Shown here: in pieces, positions 2,101-39,921 of the stretch | Position numbering within the stretch: the stretch's first letter is position 1 | Layout: each line of letters opens with the position of its first letter | DNA from: Octopus vulgaris | Taxonomy: Eukaryota | Assembly (NCBI GenBank): GCA_951406725.2 | Contig: OX597842.1 | Span: 21,886,001 to 21,950,000 of the forward strand | DNA: 64,000 bases | Reading direction: 5' to 3' | Position numbers and translations under genes: made by a program | The notes under the pieces: model-generated | Seen by the model: only the letters and a program-made list of their open reading frames with translations | Databases searched by the model: none | What the model was told of the DNA's origin: nothing

Positions 2101-2667
2101 ATATATATATATATGAAGTTATTATGTTACTTCTCATATATATTTGAAGGCGCATGGCTCAATCGTGAGTTCAATTCCTGTCATCTTCATCACATTGAAC
2201 AATGTTAAAGGTTAAAGGGTCAAAGCGAAATCCAGACACATTTTCTCTACAAAACTACTTTAAAACGTTTTCCAATGGCTGAATGACGAAACGTATTAAT
2301 CTGGTTTCTGCCCTAAATATTCTGGTAAAGTAAGGAGGCATCTTGTACACCAGCAAATACTCAGTGAAGTGCAAGTTAATTCGTAATTAGTCAACGCCGT
2401 TGCCAAACACTGAAGAATCTTGTTTAATAATTTGGCTAATTTAGTGAAATTCAAAAGTTACTCCAATATTGATTCGGTGTAAGGAATGGAAACCTACTTA
2501 TTTCCCCTTTAATTTCTATTTACTTTCTTAAATCTCCCATACTGAAGGATTATGCTTATTAGAGCCATGCTATCCATGCCAACCTTGTACAATTACTAAC
2601 ATTTTCTCACACTAAACCATCCCTCTTACTAAAAATATCCTTCTTGTTGAGGATGGGGTTTAGTCAA

Positions 2668-3063
2668 CTGGTACTTATTTTATCGACCCCGAAACGATGA
2701 AAGGCACAATCGACCATGACGGAATTTGAACTGGGAACTGTGGGATGACGTCAGCGGCTAGGAAGCTGACCGGAAGAGGAAGGGCGCGCATAGGGTAGGG
2801 GCGATTGCGCCTTTTTCGATCGGGGAAGTTGTGAGTGCAGGACGTGTCAGTGCTTCGACCAGTTGAGGGATAGCAGCTGCTATTTTTAGCGTTTCGGGAC
2901 AGGCCACGTGGAAGGGTACATTACCATCGGACAGATATGGGTCAACGAAGAGAAGGTGAGTGTCTTACTTCTAATCTCCCGCATTCATTACGAACGTAGC
3001 GACGGTCGAAATAGCGGTTAGCATTTCGTCCGGCGTGCTAACGATCCTGCCAGCTCGCCGCCC
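2668..3063 (-). mobile_element. Split tRNA-derived SINE (head 2992-3063, body 2668-2738) flanking the promoter module
   Basis: The reverse complements of both pieces match consecutive parts of the intact SINE at 47191-47402: GGCGGCGAGCTGGCAG...ACGTTC and GAGTTCAAATTCCG...GCCTTTCATC...GTCGATAAA...GTACCAGT. Confidence 0.8.
2739..2961 (+). promoter_or_regulatory. Putative type-A promoter and first exon (unit 1)
   Basis: CpG-rich patch in AT-rich DNA. CRE palindrome TGACGTCA at 2746, ETS core CCGGAAG at ~2770, E-box CACGTG at ~2906, donor AAG|GTGAGT with GT at 2956. All motifs are kept in the 3 paralogs. Confidence 0.65.
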
Positions 3064-5005: not shown

Positions 5006-5389
5006 CACTGTATTTGGCTATCTGATGTCATCTACAGTATGGATATAAATGACACTGGATATATTTGAGGAATTCCTTCATGTCAATAGAGTTTAAAAAA
5101 TGAGAGAAAGAGGAAGAAAATAGAATTTCCAAGACTAGTATTCACTATGATTGTTTCAACCCATCGTGCATCTGTGCCTCGCAGGTGAGATTCTGTACAA
5201 ACTTTCACTGCTTTAATCTCTCTAATTTCTAATTATCTTGTATGTTTTACATTGTTGTTTCTCTTTCATTTCAGATTATCAGATGACATCTGCTTCACAG
5301 GATTTTTACATAAGCAACGTCATTAGAATGGAAAGTCTTTTGAAGACTGTGCAAAGATGTTATACAAAACACGTATAACCCTGTTTCTA

Positions 5390-6714
<1,325 letters not shown>

Positions 6715-8119: not shown

Positions 8120-8803
8120 GCCACAGCTCATTAGCTGAAACTGGAAAAATCAAAATCAAATATATATATATATATATTTGAAGCTATTATGTAACTTCTC
8201 ATATATATTTGAAGGCGCATGGCTCAATCGTGAGTTCAATTCCCGTCATCTTCTTTACATTGAACAATGTTAAAGGTTAAAGGGTCAAAGTGAAATGCAG
8301 CCACATTTTCTCCACAAAACTACTTTAAAACGTTTTCCAATGGCTGAATGACGAAACGTATTAATCTGGTTTCTTCTCTAAATATTCTGGTAAAGTAAGG
8401 ATGCATGTTGTACACCAGCAAATACTCAGTGAAGTGCAAGTTAATTCATAATTAGTCAACGCCGTTGCCAAACACTGAAGAATCTTGTTTAATAATTTGG
8501 TTAATTTAGTGAAATTCAAAAGTTACTCCAATACTGATTCGGTGTAAGGAATGGAAACCTACTTATTTCCCCTTTAATTTCTATTTACTTTCTTAAATCT
8601 CCCATACTGAAGGATTATGCTTATTAGAGCCATGCTATCCATGCCAACCGTGTACAATTACTAACATTTTCTCACACTAAACCATCCCTCTTACTAAAAA
8701 TATCCTTCTTCTAGAGGATGGGGTTTAGTCAACTGGTACTTATTTTATCGACCCGGAAACGATGAAAGGCACAATCGACCATGGTGGAATTTGAACTGAG
8801 AAC

Positions 8804-9026
8804 TGTGGGATGACGTCAGCGGCTAGGAAGATGACCGGAAGAGGAAGGGTGCGTACAGGGTTGGGGCGATTGCGCCCTTTTCGATCGGGGAAGTTGTGAG
8901 TGCATCACGTGTCTGTTCTTCGACCAGATGAGGGACAGCAGCTGCTATTTTTAGCGTTTCGGGACGGGCCACGTGGAAGGGTACATTACCATCGGACAGA
9001 TATGGGTCAACGAAGAGAAGGTACGT
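8804..9026 (+). promoter_or_regulatory. Putative type-A promoter and first exon (unit 2)
   Basis: TGACGTCA, CCGGAAG and CACGTG; ATG at 9002; donor AAG|GTACGT with GT at 9021. Lies inside the split SINE 8733-9128. Confidence 0.65.
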
Positions 9027-9164
9027 GTCTTACTTCTAATCTCCCGCATTCATTACGAACGTAGCGACGGTCGAAATAGCGGTTAGCATTTCGTCCGGCG
9101 TGCTAACGATCCTGCCAGCTCGCCGCCCTGCAAAATACGTTAGATGCTTTGGGCAGATAGGTTG

Positions 9165-9261
9165 TCCAAGCGGTCACCCATCTAAGTAACCTGCAGGCTG
9201 GACATTGCTTCACTTCGGTGATCAGGCGAGACAAGGTGCAATCAGCATTATATGGCTGTAA
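9165..9261 (-). pseudogene. 5S rRNA pseudogene or 5S-derived fragment
   Basis: Reverse complement TACAGCCATATAATGCTGATTGCACCTTGTCTCGCCTGATCACCGAAGTGAAGCAATGTCCAGCCTGCAGGTTACTTAGATGGGTGACCGCTTGG is colinear with metazoan 5S rRNA (GATCACCGAAGTTAAGCAA...GTACTTGGATGGGTGACCGCCTGG). The 3' end is degenerate. Confidence 0.85.
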
Positions 9262-10156
9262 TAACAATATTAACAGTTTCAAAACATTCGCATTTTCTGA
9301 AGGTGGTAAAGTAGAGTTTGGTCAGTCGCTCGTAGAAGTTATTCTCCTTGATATAATTGTTTCTTCAGTTATCTGCTAGGAGCATAGTTTTTATTAAAAG
9401 GCCTACTGATGGTGCTTTGGGGGACTTAGTAACTACCATCGACCTCTTGTTTTGACTGGGTCTTTATTTTATTCATCCCAAAGCAATGAAAGGTAAAATT
9501 GACATCGGTGGGATTTCGTTTCGGTAATTAAAGCAAACCAATGTATGTTTTATACATTCCCCTTTTTTATAAGTTTTTGTCAGTGATATTTCTGGCGTCA
9601 GATATTCTTTGATCTCGTCTGAATTTAATGATTTTTCTGGATGTATTTCTACTTTTGTATCAAAACTGAAGGGGAAAGGACTATTTCGAAGATAACGAGT
9701 GAGATTAAATTGAGAGTGAAGTAATAATTTCTTCTTATTTTATATTAAATTTCGTTTTCTCTTTGTACAAACCTGTTTTAGTGGGAAATCTTAACAATAT
9801 TCAAGATTTCTTTACATTTTCCCGATCATAAATGCTATTTGTAAACCTGCTGAAATTATGAAGATTAAGTTATTCATAGAAAAATACGTTTTTATGAAAT
9901 TTGCTACAAATACCATTCAGAATGTGTATATTAGAATTCTATCGGAATTTAATATGAAAATATAAATTTGGTGGGCTCGTACACATGAAAGTTAAAATTT
10001 TTAAAGAAATTCTGGATTTGTCTCAGTATGTATGTGTATCTTTGTGTTAGTGTTTCTTCCCCTCCCATTCCCGCTTAACAAACGGTGTTGGTATATTTAC
10101 ATCCCTGGAACTTTCGGCAGCAGACTGATAAAATGAGTTCCAGGCATAAAAGACAA

Positions 10157-10188
<32 letters not shown>

Positions 10189-10411
10189 CATGGTGGTCTA
10201 TGTAAAGGGCATCTATACTGCTCTGCATAAAAAACACCCATACAAGGACCATGTGTGAAGATCTCAATACAATCTCTAAAGTGGTGGGCATTAAGAAGAG
10301 TGTCCAGCTGTAGAAAGCAATCTAAATCAGACAGGAACTGGGGTCAGCACCCTTGTTTGCCAGCACAGGTCAAATCAACCAACCCAGCGAAGCATGGTAA
10401 ATGGACATTAA

Positions 10412-11454
10412 CCCTTTCCTTACTATATTTCTGACTAAAATACACCCCTCATGAGTTTCAATTACATTCTAAAATAATCACGAATCTAGGCTTGTTTCAT
10501 TAAATAACTGTAACTTTTTTACTTATCAACATAAATGTGATATTTGGAACATAATTAAAGAATGGGTTCTTAATCAATTCTGCTGCATAACTTTTGTCTC
10601 AAAGTGACTTTAATTACAGGTAAATTGAGCAAAAGTTAAAAATATTAAAATTTTAAATTGAGCAAAAGGTAAAAATATTAAAATTTTGTTTAAACATCAC
10701 CATAGAAAATGAATCATCAGCTAATATTCAAATGGGTATGCAACAAAATTTTGATAAAGAAGAATTGTGCACATCACTATATCATCAGTTGAATTTAATG
10801 CACAACAGGTGTACCATAAAGGTGGAATAAACTGAAATATTGGAATCCACCGTATGTTTGACCGAACTAAAGAAATCGGTCAAAAAATAGTATACGGCCC
10901 TGGTTATGGTAAGGAAGTGATAAATTCTAGGCCACGCTGACTAACATTATTTTCCCTGTATAAAAACTAAATCCACGCAGTACCCAGTATTTGCTTCACA
11001 AATTTTCCGAAATTTAAACCCTTATTTTGGGTTTGTTTACATTCTGCGAAATTTTTGTTTCCGCATTGATCGCTTTAAACAATAACTTCCAGACCACATC
11101 ATACCCTAAACCATGCTGACTAACATTAGTTTCCCTGTATAAAAACTAAATCCACAACAGTACCCAGTATTTGTTTCACAAATTTTCCAATTCGGAATCA
11201 ATGCTTGATAACGAGAAACTCCTACCTATTTTCAAAGTTGAAGAAAAATCGATGCCGAAAAAAATGTGGAAAGAAATTTCCCAAAATTTCAGGGAATTAA
11301 AATTACACGTCGATCATTGTACAAAACTGTAGATGAACAGTTTAGGAAGTATAATCACGTGTTTTCACGAATGTACTAATGAGATTTGCTCTGATATTCT
11401 CATTTAAAAATGAACAGGTAAAGGGCGGCTTTGGTCGGTTTGGTAACGAAAGGG
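10412..11454. mobile_element. piggyBac-like non-autonomous DNA transposon
   Basis: TTAA duplicated at 10408-10411 and 11455-11458; inverted termini CCCTTTC(C/G)TTAC. Empty site GGACATTAAATGTAAAAAG at ~4217, ~28525 and ~49426. Confidence 0.88.
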
Positions 11455-11941
11455 TTAAATGTAAAAAGCTGTGCCAAAACTGACCTTGCCTGTGATCTTG
11501 CCACTTAAAATGTACTCAATACACTCTGTAGTATGGTTGGTGTTAGGAAGAGCATCCAGCTCTAAAAGCTGAGCCAAAACAGACACACAAGTCTGGGGCA
11601 GTCTTCTGACTGACCACCTCCTACCAAACCATCCAGCAGATACTGGTATTGAAGGCGGACATTAAATGATTGGGATCAGGAAATGAGAATCCTGGCAGTT
11701 TGCTGTGTTTGAAAAGACACATCAAGCTAAGTAAAAGCATGGTTGCCCTTGCATACAAGCTTGTCCCTTGCGACCCCTCCAGCTGAGCATCCCTAATCCT
11801 GCAGGCTCATGGGTGCTGATACCACGTAAAAAGCACCCATTGGTACTGCGTAATATCACCCAGTACATTCTGTAAAGGGTTTGTGTTAGAAAGGGCATCC
11901 AGCAATAGAAACTATTTTAAGATAGAGATGGGGCCTGATCA

Positions 11942-12334
<393 letters not shown>

Positions 12335-12662
12335 CTATCTGATGTCATCTACAGTATGGATATATTTGAGGAATTCCTTCATGTCAGTAGAGTTTAAAAA
12401 ATGAGAGAAAGAGAGAGAAAATAGAATTTCCAAGACTAGTATTCACTATGATTGTTTCAACCCATCGTGTATCTGTGCCTCGCAGGTGAGATTCTGTACG
12501 AACAGTTGTGGGGCATCCTTTGATGCAGACATGTCTTATCAGGTGACTTATCAAATGGTTCTTCGTATTTAAATTTCTGTTTTGCTTATTTCGATTAGAA
12601 TTCATTTTGGTATTTGTTACATGTCAAGCTTCTTTCAGTTTCCATCAAACATGTCTTTGATT

Positions 12663-12733
12663 GGCCACTCTGGGACTGAACCCAGGACCATGTGGTTGGG
12701 AAGCCAACTTCTTACCACACGACCATCCCTGCA
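12663..12733 (-). mobile_element. Decayed tRNA-like SINE head (also ~29462, ~36949, ~50670, ~63048)
   Basis: Reverse complement TGGTCGTGTGGTAAGAAG...CCCAACCACATGGTCCTGGGTTCAGTCCCA has A-box-like and B-box-like motifs. Confidence 0.6.
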
Positions 12734-12794
12734 CTTCTACAGCCATGTCTATATAAAAATGTAGTAAAACTTTCACTGCTTTAATCCCTCTAAT

Positions 12795-12846
12795 TCCTAA
12801 TTATCTTGTATGTTTTACACTGTTGTTTCTCTTTCGTTTCAGATTA
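12795..12846 (+). promoter_or_regulatory. Conserved 3' splice acceptor of the main exon (AG ends at 12842; paralogs 5274, 15949, 29638, 37125, 50846, 63225)
   Basis: CTAAT branch-like motif, then polypyrimidine TGTTGTTTCTCTTTCGTTTCAG, near-invariant in all 7 units. Confidence 0.7.
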
Positions 12847-13397
12847 TCAGATGACATCTGCTTCACAGGATTTTTACATAAGCAACGTCATTAGAATGGA
12901 AAGTCTTTTGAAGACTGAGCAAAGATGTTATACAAAACACGTATAACCCTGTTTCTATAAATATTTACTGAATTACTGCAAAATATATCTTCTGAACTCT
13001 GACATATATGTAGCAAAATTTCTCTTCTTTATTGTCTGGAATACACAGAAAATTATATTTGCATATTAATTAATCATTTAGCATTTAAACTGGCACAAAT
13101 ATTCTGACCCCTCACACCCACCCTACACGGTCATTCTAAAAGTAAACAATCACAACATTGAAATCTGAACATGATAACATAATGAATGATTAATTCAGAA
13201 GAATTTCAATAAACATTCTATTTGACTGATTAATCTGAATGTTAATGAGTTAAAGCAATTAAGAAGGCAGTTTGCAGCATCTTCAGATATTAACAAAGAT
13301 CACTTTTGATGGAGATATATCAGTAGAAATATTTGTTAAGAGCACTATACGAGAAGAAGGAAAACCTTTGTGTACTGTGACAAGAGAAAGGAAAATT

Positions 13398-14465
13398 ATG
13401 GAAAATGAATTACGTAGGAGTGAAGTTGAATGTAAAAGAGAGTCTGAAGAAATTGATTTTTCTGATGAGGAAAAGAATGAAAAGAGCAAAAATTCATTTG
13501 ATTGTGATATCTGTGGCAAGTCGTTCTCTTGGAAAGCTAAGTTAGTCATTCACGAACGTACTCATACAGGAGAGAAGCCATATCACTGTGAGATCTGTGA
13601 CAAATCGTTTTCTCAAAACAATTCCTTAACCAAGCACAAGCATGTTCATACAGGAGAAAAACCATATCACTGTGAAATCTGTGGTAAGTCTTTCTCTCAA
13701 AGCGAACACTTAACTAGGCACAAGAGTTGTGTTCATACAGGAGAAAAACCATATCACTGTGATATCTGTGGTAAGTCTTTCTCTCGAAGCGAAAACTTAA
13801 CTAGGCACAAGAGTTGTGTTCATACAGGAGAGAAACCACATCACTGTGAAATCTGTGGTGAATCCTTTTCTCAAAACAATCACTTGACCAATCACAAGCG
13901 TGTTCATACGGGAGAAAAACCATATCACTGTGAAATCTGTGGTAAATCTTTCTCTCGAAACGAAAGCTTAACGAGGCACAAGAATGGTGTTCACACAGGA
14001 GAAGCACCATATCACTGTGAAATCTGTGACAAATCATTTTCTCAAAACGATCACTTCACTATGCACAGGCGTGTTCATACAGGAGAAAAACCATATCACT
14101 GTGAAATCTGTGGTAAGTCATTCTCTCGAAACGAAAGCTTAACTAGGCACAGGCGTGTTCATATAGGAGAAAAACCATATCACTGTGAAATCTGTGGTAA
14201 ATTTTTCTCTGAAAACGGTACCTTAACCAAGCACAAGCGTGTTCATACTGGAGAAGAACCATATCACTGTGAAATCTGTGACAAATCTTTCTCTCGAAAC
14301 GATCACTTAACCATGCACAGGCGTGTTCATACAGGAGAAAAACCATATCACTGTGAAATCTGTGGTAAATCTTTCTCTCGAAACGATACCTTAACCAAGC
14401 ACAAGTGTGTTCATACAGGGGAGAAGCCATATCATTGTGATATCTCTGGTAAATCATTTTCTTAA
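13398..14465 (+). CDS. C2H2 zinc-finger protein, 11 fingers (unit 2)
   Basis: First ATG gives [25 protein letters not shown], an acidic leader, followed by CxxC...HxxxH repeats with TGEKPY linkers. Ends in a broken CDISGKSFS* finger. Confidence 0.88.
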
Positions 14466-14777
<312 letters not shown>

Positions 14778-15410
14778 GGAATGGATTCATTTCCCAAGTT
14801 ACAGACATTGTTTATGAGTTTTAATTTTCAAGCACAACATCCAAATTTTGAAAGTTTCTACTACCATAACAAATGCATCTGTGTCTTACCAAGAAGTTTA
14901 TAAAAAGCAAAGGAATGCTTCTCAGTAAACAACTCTAGACTTGTTTCTTGTGAATCAGTTGTCACGTCTACAAATGATGGTGTCCCTGAGTCTTTTCAAA
15001 GTGATTCAGAAAACAATAGTAATAATAATATTTTATGTATTCTAAATAATCTTGACATTGTTTTTGACTTTACATAAAATATTCTTTACATTCTACTGTT
15101 GTTTTATTGTCATTTATTTACAAGTATTATAAATTTTATTGGTAAAATATTTTTCTGGGAACGAATTACAATTTATAACATTGCTTCTATGGGAAATTAT
15201 TGCTTTGCTTTATGAGTTTTCCCTTTAGGAGCAATCTCCAGGAAGAAATTAACTCATATATCAAGGCATTATTGTGTTTGACAGTATTTTGGCACAAGGC
15301 CAGCAATCTCAGGGGAAGGAGTAAGTTGAATAACCACATGGATCAGCATGTGTGCTTTTTACATGAACTGGCACAAATGCTTCTTACAGGGAGTGGCATT
15401 GCACGATATA

Positions 15411-15807: not shown

Positions 15808-15843
<36 letters not shown>

Positions 15844-16701
15844 TTATATGAAGTTATTATGTTACTTCTCATATATATTTGAAGGCGCATGGCTCTCTAA
15901 TTCCTAATTATCTTGTATGTTTTACACTGTTGTTTCTCTTTCGTTTCAGATTATCAGATGACATCTGCTTCACAGGATTTTTACATAAGCAACGTCATTA
16001 GAATGGAAAGTCTTTTGAAGACTGAGCAAAGATGTTATACAAAACACGTATAACCCTGTTTCTATAAATATTTACTGAATTACTGCAAAATATATCTGGG
16101 GAACTCTGATATATATGTCGCCAAATTTCTCTTCTTTATTGTCTGGAATACACAGAAAATTATATTTGCATATTAATTAATCATTTAGCATTTAAACTAG
16201 CACAAATATTGTGACCTCTCACACTCACCCTGCAGTGTCAGTTTAAACATAAACAATTAAATCACTGAAGTCTCAAAGCTATGAGATAATCCATGATTAA
16301 TTCAAAACAATATGAATAAATAAGCATCACATTTCACAAAGGAATCTCAATGCTAAACGGTTAAACTGGCCATATTTTTGTGTGTTTTATATTCATACTA
16401 GCCAGATCCCACCCCTCACACCCTGCCTACAAGGCCATTCTAAAAATAAACAATCACAACATTGAAATCTGAACATGATAACATAATGAATGATTAATTC
16501 AGAAGAATTTCAATAAACATTATATTTGACAGAGTAATCTGAATGTTAATGAGTTAAAGCAATTAAGAAGGCAGTTTGCAGCATCTTCAGATATTAACAA
16601 AGATCACTTTTGATGGAGATATATCAGTAGAAATATTTGTTCAGAGCAATATACGAGAAGAAGGAAAACCTTTGTGTACTGTGACAAGAGAAAGGAAAAT
16701 T

Positions 16702-18039
16702 ATGGAAAATGAATTATATCGGAGTGAAGTTGAATGTAAAAGAGAGTCTGAAGAAATTGATTTTTCTGATGAGGAAAAGAATGAAAAGGGCAAAACATCA
16801 TTTGATTGTGATATATGTGGCAAGTCGTTCTCTCAGAAAGCTAAGTTAGTCATTCACGAACATACTCATACAGGAGAAAAACCATATCACTGTGAAATCT
16901 GTGGTAAATCTTTCTCTCGAAACGAAAACTTAACTAGGCACAAGAGTGGTGTTCACACAGGTGAAAAACCATATCACTGTGAAATCTGTGACAAATCTTT
17001 TTCTCAAAATGATCACTTAACTATGCACAGGCGTGTTCATACAGGAGAAAAACCATATCACTGTGAACTCTGTGGTAAATCTTTCTCTCGAAACAATAAC
17101 TTAACCAAGCACAAGCATGTTCATACAGGAGAAAAACCATATCACTGTGAACTCTGTGGTAAATCCTTTTCTCAAAACGAAAACTTAACCATGCACATTC
17201 ATGTTCATACAGGAAAAAAACCATATCACTGTGAAATTTGTGGTAAATCTTTCTCTCAAATTGATAACTTAACCAAGCATAGGTGTGTTCATACAGGAGA
17301 GAAGCCATATCATTGTGATATCTCTGGTAAATCATTTGTTAAGAGTAATATACGAGAAGAAGGAAAACCTTTGTGTACTGTGAGGAGAGAAAGGAAAATT
17401 ATGGAAAATGAATTACGTAGGAATGAGGTTGAATGTAAAAGAGAGTCTGAAGAAATTGATTTTTCTGATGAGGAGAAGAATGAAAATGGCAAAACATCAT
17501 TTGATTGTGATATCTGTGGCAAGTCGTTCTGTCAGAAAGCTAAGTTAGTCATTCACGAACGTACTCATACAGGGGAAAAGCCATATCACTGTGATATCTG
17601 TGGTAAATCCTTCTCTCAAAATGGTCAATTAACTACTCACAAACGCATTCATACAGGAGAAAAGCCATATCGCTGTGATATCTGTCATAAATCATTCTCT
17701 CAAAGTTCTAGCTTAACCAAGCACAAGCATCTTCATACAGGAGAAAAACCATATCACTGTGAAATCTGTGGTAAATCCTTTTCTCAAAACGATCACTTAA
17801 CCATGCACAAGCGTGTTCATACAGGAGAAAAACCATTTCACTGTGAAATCTGTGGTAAATCTTTCTCTCGAAACGAAGGCTTAACCAAGCACAAGCCTGT
17901 TCATACAGGAGAGAAGCCATATCACTGTGATATCTGTGGTAAATCATTCTCTACATGGAGTGCCTTATTTAAACACAAATACATTCATGCAGGAGAAAAG
18001 CCATATCACTGTGAAATCTGTGGTAAATCCTTTCCTTAA
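16702..18039 (+). CDS. C2H2 zinc-finger protein, 6+6 fingers with an internally duplicated acidic leader (unit 3)
   Basis: ORF 16576..18039 with a second MENEL leader at 17401. An in-frame TAA replaces CAA in finger 13; the ancestral frame continues to TDREHIS* at ~18096. Confidence 0.82.
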
Positions 18040-18496
18040 AACGATCACTTAACCAAGCACAAGCATGTTCATACAGACAGAGAACACATTTCATGAGGAA
18101 TAGATTCATTTCCCAAGTTACAGACATTGTTTATGAGTTTTATTTTTCAAGCACAACATCCAAATTTTGAAAGTTTCTACCACCATAACAAATGCATCTG
18201 TGTCTTACCAAGAAGTTTATAAAAAGCAAAGGAATGCTTCTCAGTAAACAACTCTAGACTTGTTTCTTGTGAATCAGTTGTCACGTCTACAAATGATGGT
18301 GTCCCTGAGTCTTTTCAAAGTGATTCAGAAAACAATAGTAATAATAATATTTTGTGTATTCTAAATAATCTTGACATTGTTTTTGACTTTACATAAAATA
18401 TTCTTTACATTCTACTGTTGTTTTATTGTCATTTATTTACAAGTATTATAAATTTTATTGGTAAAATATTTTTCTGGGAATGAATTATGATTTATA

Positions 18497-25572: not shown

Positions 25573-26326
25573 TGAAAGGAAGCAACAGAAAGTAACAAAT
25601 ATATATATGAAGCTATTATGTTACTTCTCATATATATTTGAAGGTGCATGGCTCAAGTCGTGAGTTCAATTCCCGTCATCTTCATCACATTGAACAATGT
25701 TAAAGGTTAAAGGGTCAAAGCGAAATGCAGCCACATTTTCTCTACAAAACTACTTTAAAACGTTTTCCAATGGCTGAATGACGAAACGTATTAATCTGGT
25801 TTCTGTCCTAAATATTCTGGTAAAGTAAGGATGCATCTTGTACACCAGCAAATACTCAGTGAAGTGCAAGTAAATCAGTTGACCAAAAGATTGACTCCTC
25901 GTTGTGAAACGACGGAGATCCACCACCGTTATAATCCTATGAAGCCATCTAAAGATCGAATGCTTCTTTTTCCCGTAATTAGGCTCATGCCCTTGCTTAT
26001 CTCCCTTTACTCACTAATTTTCCTTATCGTCTTTCAATGAATTAATACCAACACAAATTTCTCTCAGATCTAATCCCTTCCTCTAATCAATGCTGGAATT
26101 TTTTTAGTAACAATCTTCCTCTGAATATTATATGGAGCTGTTCTCTTTTCATTTTCGTTTTCTACGCACTTTATGTGGGTACTAGTAGCGAACAGTGGTC
26201 CCGGTCCGCTCACACGCACATGGGTCTTTTTAGCAAGCACAGCAAACGTTCGCATTTTCTAAAGGTGACATATTACTAATTGGTCATTCATTCGTGGAAG
26301 TTGTTCTTGATATAATAGTTTCTTAA

Positions 26327-33088: not shown

Positions 33089-33311
33089 TGTGGGATGACG
33101 TCAGCGGCTAGGAAGCTGACCGGAAGAGGAAGGGTGCGTACAGAGTTGATGCGATTGCGCCCTTTTCGATCGGGGAAGTTGTGAGTGCAGGACGTGTCAG
33201 TGCTTCGACCAGATGAGGGATAGCAGCTGCTATTTTTAGCGTTTCGGGACGGGCCACGTGGAAGGGTACATTACCATCCGACAGATATGGGTCAACGAAG
33301 AGAAGGTACGT
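33089..33311 (+). promoter_or_regulatory. Putative type-A promoter and first exon (unit 5)
   Basis: TGACGTCA, CCGGAAG and CACGTG; ATG at 33287; donor GT at 33306; inside the split SINE 33018-33413. Confidence 0.65.
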
Positions 33312-33449
33312 GTCTTACTTCTAATCTCCCGCATTCACTACGAACGTAGCGACGGTCGAAATAGCGGTTAGCATTTCGTCCGGCGTGCTAACGATCCTGC
33401 CAGCTCGCCGCCCTGCAAAATACGTTAGATGCTTTGGGCACATAGGTTG

Positions 33450-33545
33450 TCCAAGCGGTCACCCATCTAAGTACCCTACAGGCTGGACATTGCTTCACTT
33501 CGGTGATCAGGCGAGACAAGGTGCAATCAGCATTATATGGCTGTT
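33450..33545 (-). pseudogene. 5S rRNA pseudogene or 5S-derived fragment
   Basis: Paralog of 9165-9261; retains GATCACCGAAGTGAAGCAA and GTACTTAGATGGGTGACCGC. Confidence 0.85.
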
Positions 33546-34679
33546 ATAACAATATTAACAGTTTCAAAACATTCGCATTTTCTGAAGGTGGTAAAGTAGA
33601 GTTTGGTCAGTCGCTCGTACAAGTTATTCTCCTTGATATAATTGTTTCTTCAGTTAACTGCTAGGAGTATAGTTTTTATTAAAAGGCCTACTGATGGTGC
33701 TTTGGGGGACTTAGTAACTACCATCGACCTCTTCTATTGACTGGGTCTTTATTTTATTCATCCCAAAGCAATGAAAGGTAATATTGACATCGGTGGGATT
33801 TCGTTTCGGTAATTAAAGCAAACCAATGTATGTTTTATACATTCCCTTTTTTATAAGTTTTTGTCAGTGATATTTCTGGTGTCAGATATTCTTTGATCTC
33901 GTCTGAAATTAATGATTTTTCTTGATGAATTTCTACTTTTGTATCAAAACTGAAGGGGAAAGGACTATTTCGAAGATAACGAGTGAGATTAAATTGAGAG
34001 TGAAGTAATAATTTCTTCTTATTTTATATTAAAATTCGTTTTCTCTTTGTACAAACCTGTTTTAGTGGGAAATCTTAACAATATTCAAGATTTCTTTACA
34101 TTTTCCCGATCATAAATGCTATTTGTAAACCTGCTGAAATTATGAAGATTAAGTTATTTATAGAAAAATATGTTTTTATGAAATTTGTTATAAATACCAT
34201 TCAGAATGTGTATATTAGAATTCTATCGGAATTTAATATGAAAATATAAATTTGGTGGGCTCGTACACATGAAAGTTAAAATTTTTAAATAAATTCTGGA
34301 TTTGTCTCAGTATGTATGTGTATCTTTGTGTTAGTGTTTCTTCCCCTCCCATTCCCGCTTAACAAACGGTGTTGGTATATTTACATCCCTGGAACTTTCG
34401 GCAGCAGACTGATAAAATGAGTGCCAGGCATAAAAAAACAAATACATATATATATATCATGGTGATCTATGTAAAGGGCATCTATACTGCTCTGCATAAA
34501 AAACACCCATACTAGGACCATGTCAGAAGATCTCAATACAATCTCTAAAGTGGTGGGCATTAAGAAGAGTGTCCAGCTGTAGAAAGCAATCTAAATCAGG
34601 CAGGAACTGGGGCAGCACTCCTGTTTGCCAGCACAGGTCAAACCAACCAACCCAGGGAAGCATGGTAAATGGACATTAA

Positions 34680-36590: not shown

Positions 36591-37877
36591 ACTGTATTTG
36601 GCTATCTGATGTCATCTACAGTATGGATATAAATGACACTGGATTTATTTGAGGAATTCCTTCATGTCAGTAGAGTTTAAAACATGAGAGAAAGAGAAAT
36701 AAAATAGAATTTCCAAGACTAGTATTCCCTATGATTGTTTCAACCCATCGTGCATCTGTGCCTCGCAGGTGAGATTCTGTACGAACAGTTGTGGGGCATC
36801 CTTTGATGCAGACATGTCCCATCAGGTGACTTATCAAATGGTTCCTCGTATTTAAATTTCTGTTTTGCTTATTTCGATAAGATTTCGTTTTGGTATTTGG
36901 GACAAGTCAAGCTTCTTTCAGTTTCCATCAAACATGGCTTGTATTGGCCACTCTGGGACTGAACCCAGGACCATGTGGTTGGGAAGCCAACTTCTTACCA
37001 CACGACCATCCCTGCACTTCTACAGCCATGTCTATATAAAAATGTAGTAAAACTTTCACTGCTTTAATCTCTCTAATTCCTAATTATCTTGTATGTTTTA
37101 CACTGTTGTTTCTCTTTCGTTTCAGATTATCAGATGACATCTGCTTCACAGAATTTTTACATAAGCAACGTCATTAGAATGGAAAGTCTTTTGAAGACTG
37201 AGCAAAGATGTTATACAAAACACGTATAACCCTGTTTCTATGAATATTTACTGAATTACTGCAAAATATATCTTCTGAACTCTGACATATATGTAGCAAA
37301 ATTTCTCTTCTTTATTGTCTGGAATACACAGAAAATTATATTTGCATATTAATTAATCATTTAGCATTTAAACTAGCACAAATATTGTGACCTCTCACAC
37401 TCACCTTGCAGTGTCAATTTAAACATAAACAATCAAATCACTGAAGTCTCAAAGCTATGAGATAATCCATGATTAATTCAAAACAATATGAATAAATAAG
37501 CATTACATTTCACAAAGGAATCTCAATGCTAAACGGTTAAACTGGCCATATTTTTGTGTGTTTTATATTCATACTAGCCAGATCCCACCCTTCACACCCA
37601 CCCTACAAGGTCATTCTAAAAATAAACAATCACAACATTGAAATCTGAACATGATAACATAATGAATGATTAATTCAGAAGAATTTCAATAAACATTATA
37701 TTTGACAGAGTAATCTGAATGTTAATGAGTTAAAGCAATTAAGAAGGCAGGTTGCAGCATCTTCAGATATTAACAAAGATCACTTTTTATGGAGATATAT
37801 CAGTAGAAATATTTGTTCAGAGCAATATACGAGAAGAAGGAAATCCTTTGTGAACTGTGACGAGAGAAAGGAAAATT

Positions 37878-39921
<2,044 letters not shown>

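What the first reader, a model, noticed from the sequence alone, without database searches (positions are those of the whole stretch)
2668..3063. Promoter and first exon sit as a 253-bp insert inside a split SINE
Seen in all three type-A units. The minus-strand SINE stops at ...TTTGAACTG(G/A)GAAC and resumes at GAACGTAGCG..., where an intact SINE reads continuously, so GAAC is duplicated around the insert (2739-2991, 8804-9056, 33089-33341). The insert carries CRE, ETS core, E-box, an ATG and the splice donor. Inference: a ready-made promoter/exon module was captured from elsewhere and then amplified with the cluster. The CRE suggests cAMP or activity responsiveness.
Basis: partly seen in the sequence, partly recalled or inferred. 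Interest (0 to 1): 0.7.

Follow-up and report, generated by a model that had tools for sequence, protein, structure and literature searches.

The report
Solo LTR heading octopus zinc-finger genes
The insert is the leftover end of a common jumping gene that landed once inside a short repeat in front of an octopus zinc-finger gene and was then copied 16 times along with the gene cluster; it likely serves as the start switch of some of these genes, which is untested, and such borrowing is well known in mammals.

Summary
The split is real, but the insert is not a captured host promoter. It is a solo LTR of a Gypsy-type retrotransposon: 24 dispersed copies at 76-83% identity share its ends, several pairs flank gag-pol, and 11 of 12 measurable elements have 5-bp target duplications. 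All 16 cluster copies share one pair of flanks and form one clade. Three paralogous units keep the same SINE uninterrupted, so there was one insertion followed by segmental duplication. GAAC is the remnant of a 5-bp duplication. CRE, ETS, E-box and donor position came with the LTR. The ATG is cluster-specific, missing in 4 of 16 copies, and not in frame with the zinc fingers in the joins tested. Promoter use is plausible (sense orientation, strong donor in 16 of 16, CpGs kept where the LTR-less paralogs lost them) but unshown: no start site or splice junction was seen, the LTR diverges at a neutral-looking rate, and LTR-less units carry equally long arrays. The unit at 2739 has an inverted coding exon. 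Side lead: the family's primer site matches tRNA-Phe nucleotides 1-12.

The parts
2739..2991 (+). Solo LTR of a Gypsy-type retrotransposon (starts TGT; the family's terminal A is missing)
8804..9056 (+). Second copy of the same LTR insertion (segmental duplicate)
33089..33341 (+). Third copy of the same LTR insertion (segmental duplicate)
2665..2738 (-). Body-side half of the split SINE; its last five + strand bases (2734-2738) are the left target-site copy
2992..3063 (-). Head-side half of the split SINE; 2992-2995 is the 4-base remnant of the right target-site copy; keeps 8 of 9 family CpGs, none deaminated
2746..2753 (+). CRE match, inherited from the LTR family (exact in 14 of 16 cluster and 8 of 14 dispersed copies)
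2770..2776 (+). ETS-type core (16 of 16 cluster, 4 of 14 dispersed by column; most others differ by CpG-type changes)
2905..2910 (+). E-box (16 of 16 cluster once one gap placement is read correctly, 5 of 14 dispersed)
2937..2939 (+). Cluster-specific ATG (12 of 16 cluster, 0 of 14 dispersed); at most a short upstream ORF
2956..2961 (+). Predicted splice donor (AAG|GTGAGT in 4, AAG|GTACGT in 12 of 16 cluster copies; GT at this place in 13 of 14 dispersed copies)
9145..9263 (-). 5S-rRNA-like head of the composite host SINE (unit 2; 33430-33548 in unit 3; mostly deleted in unit 1)
9264..9310 (+). Near-invariant stretch ending in AAG|GT, shared with LTR-less unit types; candidate older exon end or mini-exon
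12790..12960 (+). Highly conserved predicted acceptor (after 12842) and start of the last exon; homologs at 5222-5392 and 37073-37241
13398..14462 (+). C2H2 zinc-finger ORF of unit 2 (355 aa, 8 canonical fingers in the first frame)
37878..39293 (+). C2H2 zinc-finger ORF of unit 3 (472 aa, 13 canonical fingers)
5600..6592 (-). Zinc-finger coding part of unit 1, inverted relative to the LTR at 2739, so this unit is likely a pseudogene
25880..26325 (+). Alternative upstream block of an LTR-less (type B) unit, used as comparator

Best explanation
The insert is a solo LTR of a dispersed Gypsy-type retrotransposon that integrated once into a SINE upstream of a C2H2 zinc-finger gene and was copied to 16 places by segmental duplication; it likely now acts as promoter and non-coding first exon for some of these genes. 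Shown: LTR identity, single insertion, empty paralogous site, amplification. Inferred: loss of the internal region by LTR-LTR recombination and a 2-base loss at the right junction. Inferred and untested: RNA polymerase II would start in the LTR downstream of the CRE and ETS sites, splice from AAG|GT at LTR base 217 to the conserved acceptor region, and translate the zinc fingers from the MENEL start, with the LTR ATG at most an upstream ORF. I put the origin at about 0.97 and promoter use at about 0.5.
For: Origin: 24 dispersed full-length matches at 76-83% on many contigs with the same ends. 16 of 22 dispersed elements adjoin retrotransposon internal sequence and 6 are solo. LTR pairs 2.8 and 3.9 kb apart flank gag (zf-CCHC, E 2.5e-7) and integrase (rve, E 2.8e-6) frames. 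A relative's pol reads RVT_1, RNase H-like, integrase in that order. 5-bp duplications in 11 of 12 measurable elements, 8 exact. Single insertion: 16 of 16 cluster copies share both flanks and form one clade, support 100/99. Three LTR-less units hold the same SINE uninterrupted and share unique flanks with the LTR units that none of 19 correctly oriented dispersed composites share. Function, all indirect: 15 of 16 copies lie in sense 1.3-4.3 kb upstream of the conserved acceptor. A strong donor is kept in 16 of 16 copies in two different states. The SINE half just downstream keeps 8 of 9 CpGs with none deaminated, while the same SINE in an LTR-less paralog keeps 2 of 6 with 4 deaminated; octopus methylation lies on gene bodies and often spares start sites (PMC9476566, passages). 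Contigs of two runs guessed to be RNA, from two studies, cover the LTR with cluster-type letters.
Against: No joint from the LTR donor among the 15 of 696 joints and 24 of 3072 loose ends shown. The same runs also cover the neighbouring intron, and one contig starts at LTR base 10, upstream of the ETS site, which fits read-through or DNA as well. The LTR is no more conserved among copies (pi 0.049) than the intron (0.053 and 0.024) or the upstream flank (0.016). Root-to-tip length of the cluster clade (about 0.09) equals that of dispersed copies. 25 of 40 acceptor-bearing units in the 464 kb read lack the LTR, and type B units have equally long finger arrays (up to 24 against up to 20). A CpG-rich 5' zone exists in LTR-less units too. 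CpG richness of the LTR itself is uninformative: 7 of 14 dispersed copies are as rich. The unit named in the finding has an inverted coding exon.
Confidence: 0.5

Rival explanations
1. Passenger: the same solo LTR, but functionally inert. The genes start at an older promoter in the block shared by all unit types (around 9264-10000 in unit 2), and the LTR was merely carried along by duplication.
For: Neutral-looking divergence; most units lack the LTR yet have long open arrays; 9264-9310 is the most conserved stretch of the 5' region (1 variable site in 47 over 12 copies) and is shared with types B and C; TEs riding on segmental duplications of zinc-finger clusters is documented in mouse (PMC12575710, passages).
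Against: Does not explain why the downstream SINE half keeps its CpGs only in LTR-bearing units, nor two different strong donor states in 16 of 16 copies; both are small samples from one insertion.
Confidence: 0.38
2. Enhancer or add-on: the LTR's CRE and ETS sites boost a start site further downstream, and its donor is unused.
For: LTR bases 1-40 (CRE, ETS) vary less than the next 90 bases (pi 0.025 against 0.076); the old AAG|GT at 9303 is kept in most LTR units.
Against: Only 4 variable sites in 40 bases, no test of significance; one unit lacks the old donor region and retains only the LTR donor (G000:C29 near 19.076 Mb).
Confidence: 0.1
3. One reading: a host gene's promoter and first exon were captured into the SINE.
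For: Promoter-type motifs and a donor are present.
Against: The sequence is the terminal repeat of a retrotransposon family; motifs and donor position are in the dispersed LTRs.
Confidence: 0.01
4. Site-specific insertion: an element that targets this position of the SINE inserted repeatedly.
For: Earlier scan notes describe Tx1-type LINEs that target this genome's SINE head (unchecked).
Against: 0 of 24 dispersed copies abut a SINE; their target sites are all different; the 16 cluster copies share one junction defect and one clade.
Confidence: 0.01

Closest known systems
Solo LTRs of Ty3/Gypsy retrotransposons (mollusc Gypsy clades surveyed in PMC6238403; passages seen)
   Same: TG...CA repeat of about 260 bases, 5-bp target duplication, gag then PR-RT-RH-IN order, solo and paired copies.
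   Different: Clade not assigned here; the primer site matches tRNA-Phe nucleotides 1-12 rather than a tRNA 3' end.
TEs amplified inside mouse KRAB zinc-finger clusters by segmental duplication (PMC12575710; passages seen)
   Same: An LTR element integrated first and was multiplied with zinc-finger gene blocks.
   Different: Invertebrate, KRAB-less C2H2 genes, Gypsy rather than ERV; here one LTR sits at the 5' end of each unit. The passages seen do not discuss promoter use.
LTR promoters of multicopy host genes: NAIP and salivary amylase AMY1 (table rows and passages in PMC3123540 and PMC5631067; primary papers not read)
   Same: LTR upstream of a duplicated host gene, proposed as promoter. 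That the AMY1 ERV is nested in an older retroposed sequence is recalled, not read here.
   Different: Those cases have transcript and reporter evidence; this one has none yet.

Membership tests
Ty3/Gypsy LTR (solo) | Occurs as direct repeats flanking gag-pol | tested here: met
   L031, L032, L082, L089 and others; LTR pairs 77-87% identical
Ty3/Gypsy LTR (solo) | TG...CA termini | tested here: met
   Family copies end in ACA (12 of 14); the 16 cluster copies start TG but lack the final A
Ty3/Gypsy LTR (solo) | 4-6 bp target-site duplication | tested here: met
   5 bp in 11 of 12 measurable elements; 4-base remnant in the cluster, with the empty site seen
Ty3/Gypsy LTR (solo) | Domain order RT, RNase H, integrase (not Copia order) | tested here: met
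   L093, 81% identical to L032 at DNA level: RVT_1 142-222, RVT_3 367-430, rve 574-661; RVT_1 and rve score below Pfam's curated cut-offs
Ty3/Gypsy LTR (solo) | Primer-binding site complementary to a tRNA 3' end | tested here: not met
   The site is complementary to tRNA-Phe nt 1-12 in 10 of 10 relatives, with no self-priming complement. Primer type varies among LTR lineages (PMC6317226, passages), so this marks an odd lineage rather than excluding the superfamily
Ty3/Gypsy LTR (solo) | Placement in a named Gypsy clade (and exclusion of BEL/Pao) by RT phylogeny | not tested
   No reference RT set on hand; the Gypsy label rests on domain order, one CCHC knuckle and recalled RT motif style
Exapted LTR promoter (NAIP/AMY1 type) | LTR in sense orientation upstream of the host gene | tested here: met
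   15 of 16 copies
Exapted LTR promoter (NAIP/AMY1 type) | Transcription start site inside the LTR | not testable with these tools
   Only contigs were available, which cannot show starts
Exapted LTR promoter (NAIP/AMY1 type) | Spliced LTR-to-gene transcript | tested here: inconclusive
   Not among 15 of 696 joints shown; no annotated protein begins in the LTR
Exapted LTR promoter (NAIP/AMY1 type) | Constraint beyond neutral flanks | tested here: inconclusive
   Whole LTR not constrained; motifs and donor kept in 14-16 of 16 young copies
Exapted LTR promoter (NAIP/AMY1 type) | Reporter or deletion effect | not testable with these tools
   Needs bench work
SINE-targeting site-specific element | Independent insertions at the same SINE base | tested here: not met
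   0 of 24 dispersed copies abut a SINE

The most novel reading that the evidence does not exclude
A Gypsy LTR has become the promoter of about 40% of the units of an octopus zinc-finger cluster, so that the CREB and ETS signals that wake this retrotransposon family also switch on a battery of zinc-finger genes: a transposon-built sensor for a transposon-control gene family in an invertebrate.
Probability: 0.12. Interest if true: 0.7.

Novelty: new member of a known kind. Interest (0 to 1): 0.35.

Why it matters
Octopus C2H2 clusters are a hallmark expansion whose regulation is little known, and zinc-finger expansions are linked to TE control across animals (PMC10547256, passages). This locus is a clean natural experiment: near-identical genes with and without one LTR, plus paralogs with the empty site, so one 5'-end data set would decide whether a TE rewired part of the cluster. 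If the LTR is a passenger, it is an ordinary nested insertion that serves only as a lineage marker. The side lead, a conserved primer site matching the first 12 bases of tRNA-Phe, could matter more for retroelement biology than the finding itself.

Tried and rejected
Sequencing runs: no RNA holder on record was listed; 14 holders are only guessed to be RNA. One lay of four runs on 8130-15000 was swamped by SINE and finger repeats. Depth relative to the large run was higher in the LTR bin than upstream for X1 and X2 (0.020 and 0.073 against 0.0006 and 0.0026) but not for X10 (0.0012 against 0.0040); contig depth cannot rank parts of a gene, so I do not count it. A joint 9129 to 13065 in three runs (25-base side, letters between unknown) was judged a likely repeat artefact. 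No read-level view of the LTR donor was obtained, which leaves the splice junction open. Protein searches for an LTR-derived N-terminus found nothing; the profile-free search gave 3 hits, two Octopus sinensis zinc-finger proteins, one starting at MENEL, and one unrelated. Rfam at gathering score found nothing in the window; weak SNORD14 and HIV SL3 hits were taken as chance. Pfam on five decayed pieces gave one weak rve hit and PDB gave none. The bacterial promoter scan is not meaningful here. I first took the shared 5S-like flank as proof that the empty site is paralogous; one search showed that flank is part of a repeat, so the claim now rests on unique flanks (L107 was wrongly oriented and is left out, 19 of 20). 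Comparison of CpG loss with unrelated old SINEs (11 of 75 kept in 10 copies with about 10% or more divergence) is confounded by subfamily differences and paralogs, so only the paired comparison is used. Paper searches for an octopus or zinc-finger LTR promoter, for the primer site and for a 5S-headed octopus SINE listed nothing on point; the library lacks most subscription journals, Repbase was not available, and the octopus genome paper was not held. Supplements were not opened.

Full report
Setting. The window is G000:C29:21886001-21950000 of a 2.8-Gb genome. It is a tandem cluster of C2H2 zinc-finger genes. The closest named proteins are Octopus sinensis zinc-finger proteins, so I call it an octopus genome by inference.

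Observation. The three inserts, the split SINE, the flanking GAAC and the motifs are as described. Aligned with 32 intact SINE copies, the two halves meet at one base and are about equally diverged.

What the insert is. A search of the genome gave 347 first-look candidates; the 40 scored gave 16 copies on C29 at 85-100%, 24 full-length dispersed copies at 76-83%, and one short piece. The dispersed copies have the same ends, TGT at the start and ACA at the end. Two pairs lie 2.8 and 3.9 kb apart as direct repeats around gag-like and integrase-like frames. Of 22 dispersed elements, 16 adjoin this internal sequence and 6 are solo. Twelve could be read at both ends: 8 have an exact 5-bp duplication, 3 have one mismatch, 1 has none. 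A protein search with the RT region gave 851 candidates, and one relative shows RT, RNase H-like and integrase domains in Gypsy order, with modest scores. The insert is therefore a solo LTR. In the cluster the last LTR base and the first base of the right duplication are missing in 16 of 16 copies, which is why only GAAC appears twice.

One insertion, then duplication. All 16 cluster copies share both flanks and form one clade with support 100/99 among 30 aligned rows (the 10 dispersed copies fetched later were not in the tree). Three units (L038, L048, L065) hold the same SINE without the LTR. The SINE with its 5S-like head is itself a repeat, so I checked unique flanks: these units match the LTR units on both sides beyond the repeat, and none of 19 dispersed composites do. 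LTR pairs of the family are 77-87% identical (five full pairs; one 96-base remnant is 93%), whereas cluster copies differ by about 5%, so insertion preceded amplification. The family does not target the SINE: 0 of 24 dispersed copies abut one.

Where the motifs come from. CRE, ETS core, E-box and the donor GT are in the dispersed LTRs as well (exact in 8, 4, 5 and 13 of 14), so they are the retrotransposon's own equipment. The ATG is new in the cluster lineage (0 of 14 dispersed) and lost in 4 of 16 copies. Joined to the conserved acceptor at 12843 it would give a 40-residue upstream ORF, and joined at 13287 it is out of frame. An annotated relative starts at MENEL in the last exon. So any LTR exon would be non-coding.

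Is it the promoter? For: 15 of 16 copies lie in sense, 1.3-4.3 kb upstream of the conserved acceptor; every copy has a strong donor, in two states; the SINE half just downstream keeps 8 of 9 CpGs while the same SINE in an LTR-less paralog keeps 2 of 6, as expected if it lies next to an unmethylated start (octopus methylation pattern: PMC9476566, passages); contigs of two runs guessed to be RNA cover the LTR with cluster-type letters. Against: no junction from the donor among the rows shown, and the same runs cover the intron; the LTR varies as much as the intron and at the rate of dispersed copies; 25 of 40 units read lack it, and type B units have equally long arrays; LTR-less units also have a CpG-rich 5' zone; the most conserved 5' stretch is 9264-9310, which is older than the LTR. 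The unit named in the finding has its coding exon inverted. I put promoter use at about even odds and commit to it narrowly; the passenger reading is close behind. The cAMP claim has no support beyond a motif that the family carries everywhere.

Comparison with what is known. TEs multiplied by segmental duplication in zinc-finger clusters are described in mouse (PMC12575710, passages), and LTR promoters of multicopy genes are described for NAIP and AMY1 (PMC3123540 and PMC5631067, table rows and passages). It is a member of the solo-LTR class by the tests met; it works like an exapted LTR promoter only if the untested steps hold. Searches listed no report of this in octopus, within a library that lacks most subscription journals. 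The scan had no note near this place or on this sequence; notes on SINE-targeting LINEs supplied a rival that this insert fails, and two notes describe other TE-promoter links at this genome's zinc-finger genes, which I did not check.

Side lead. Directly after the 5' LTR, 10 of 10 related elements carry the exact complement of tRNA-Phe bases 1-12, across LTR types that do not align with each other. This suggests priming by a short 5' tRNA fragment, a type absent from the passages read in PMC6317226 and PMC10886601. It is inferred from sequence only, and precedents that I recall in yeast elements were not checked.

Verdict. Observation confirmed; origin solved as an ordinary nested solo LTR; function open. 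New member of a known kind, interest 0.35.

Noticed in passing
L031:1877-1889; L121-L130 directly after the 5' LTR: The primer-site position reads the exact complement of host tRNA-Phe(GAA) nucleotides 1-12 plus one A in 10 of 10 related elements, across LTR types that do not align with each other and with different sequence behind it. No self-priming complement in the LTR. The three primer types listed in PMC6317226 (passages) do not include it, and PMC10886601 (passages) ties truncated tRNA primers to Copia. I recall possible precedents in yeast Gypsy elements (Tca3, Ylt1); not checked.
   Followed up: partly
window 9057-9263 (minus); L101-L120: A 5S-rRNA-like head joined by a short variable spacer to the tRNA-type SINE forms a dispersed composite repeat (36 of the 41 rows lie outside the cluster). 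It may be a chimeric SINE family or repeated template switching.
   Followed up: partly
window 5412-6690: The zinc-finger exon of unit 1 is inverted in place; most full units also carry a short inverted finger fragment in the intron (for example 12060-12313).
   Followed up: partly
window 26166-26221: Type B upstream blocks hold a 45-55 base piece found on many contigs, sometimes as inverted pairs 150-300 bases apart, like a MITE end.
   Followed up: no
window 2610-2662 and 8675-8727: In LTR units the SINE's tail is replaced by a short inverted copy of the adjacent flank, forming a small hairpin; the LTR-less paralogs keep the tail.
   Followed up: no
G000:C18:30147728-30157146: A tandem array with a 200-base period, each unit matching the tRNA-Phe 5' end pattern (46 matches).
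   Followed up: no
window 15830-18100: A truncated unit that begins at the last-exon acceptor with no upstream block, yet has a 445-aa, 11-finger frame; several such units occur in the cluster.
   Followed up: no
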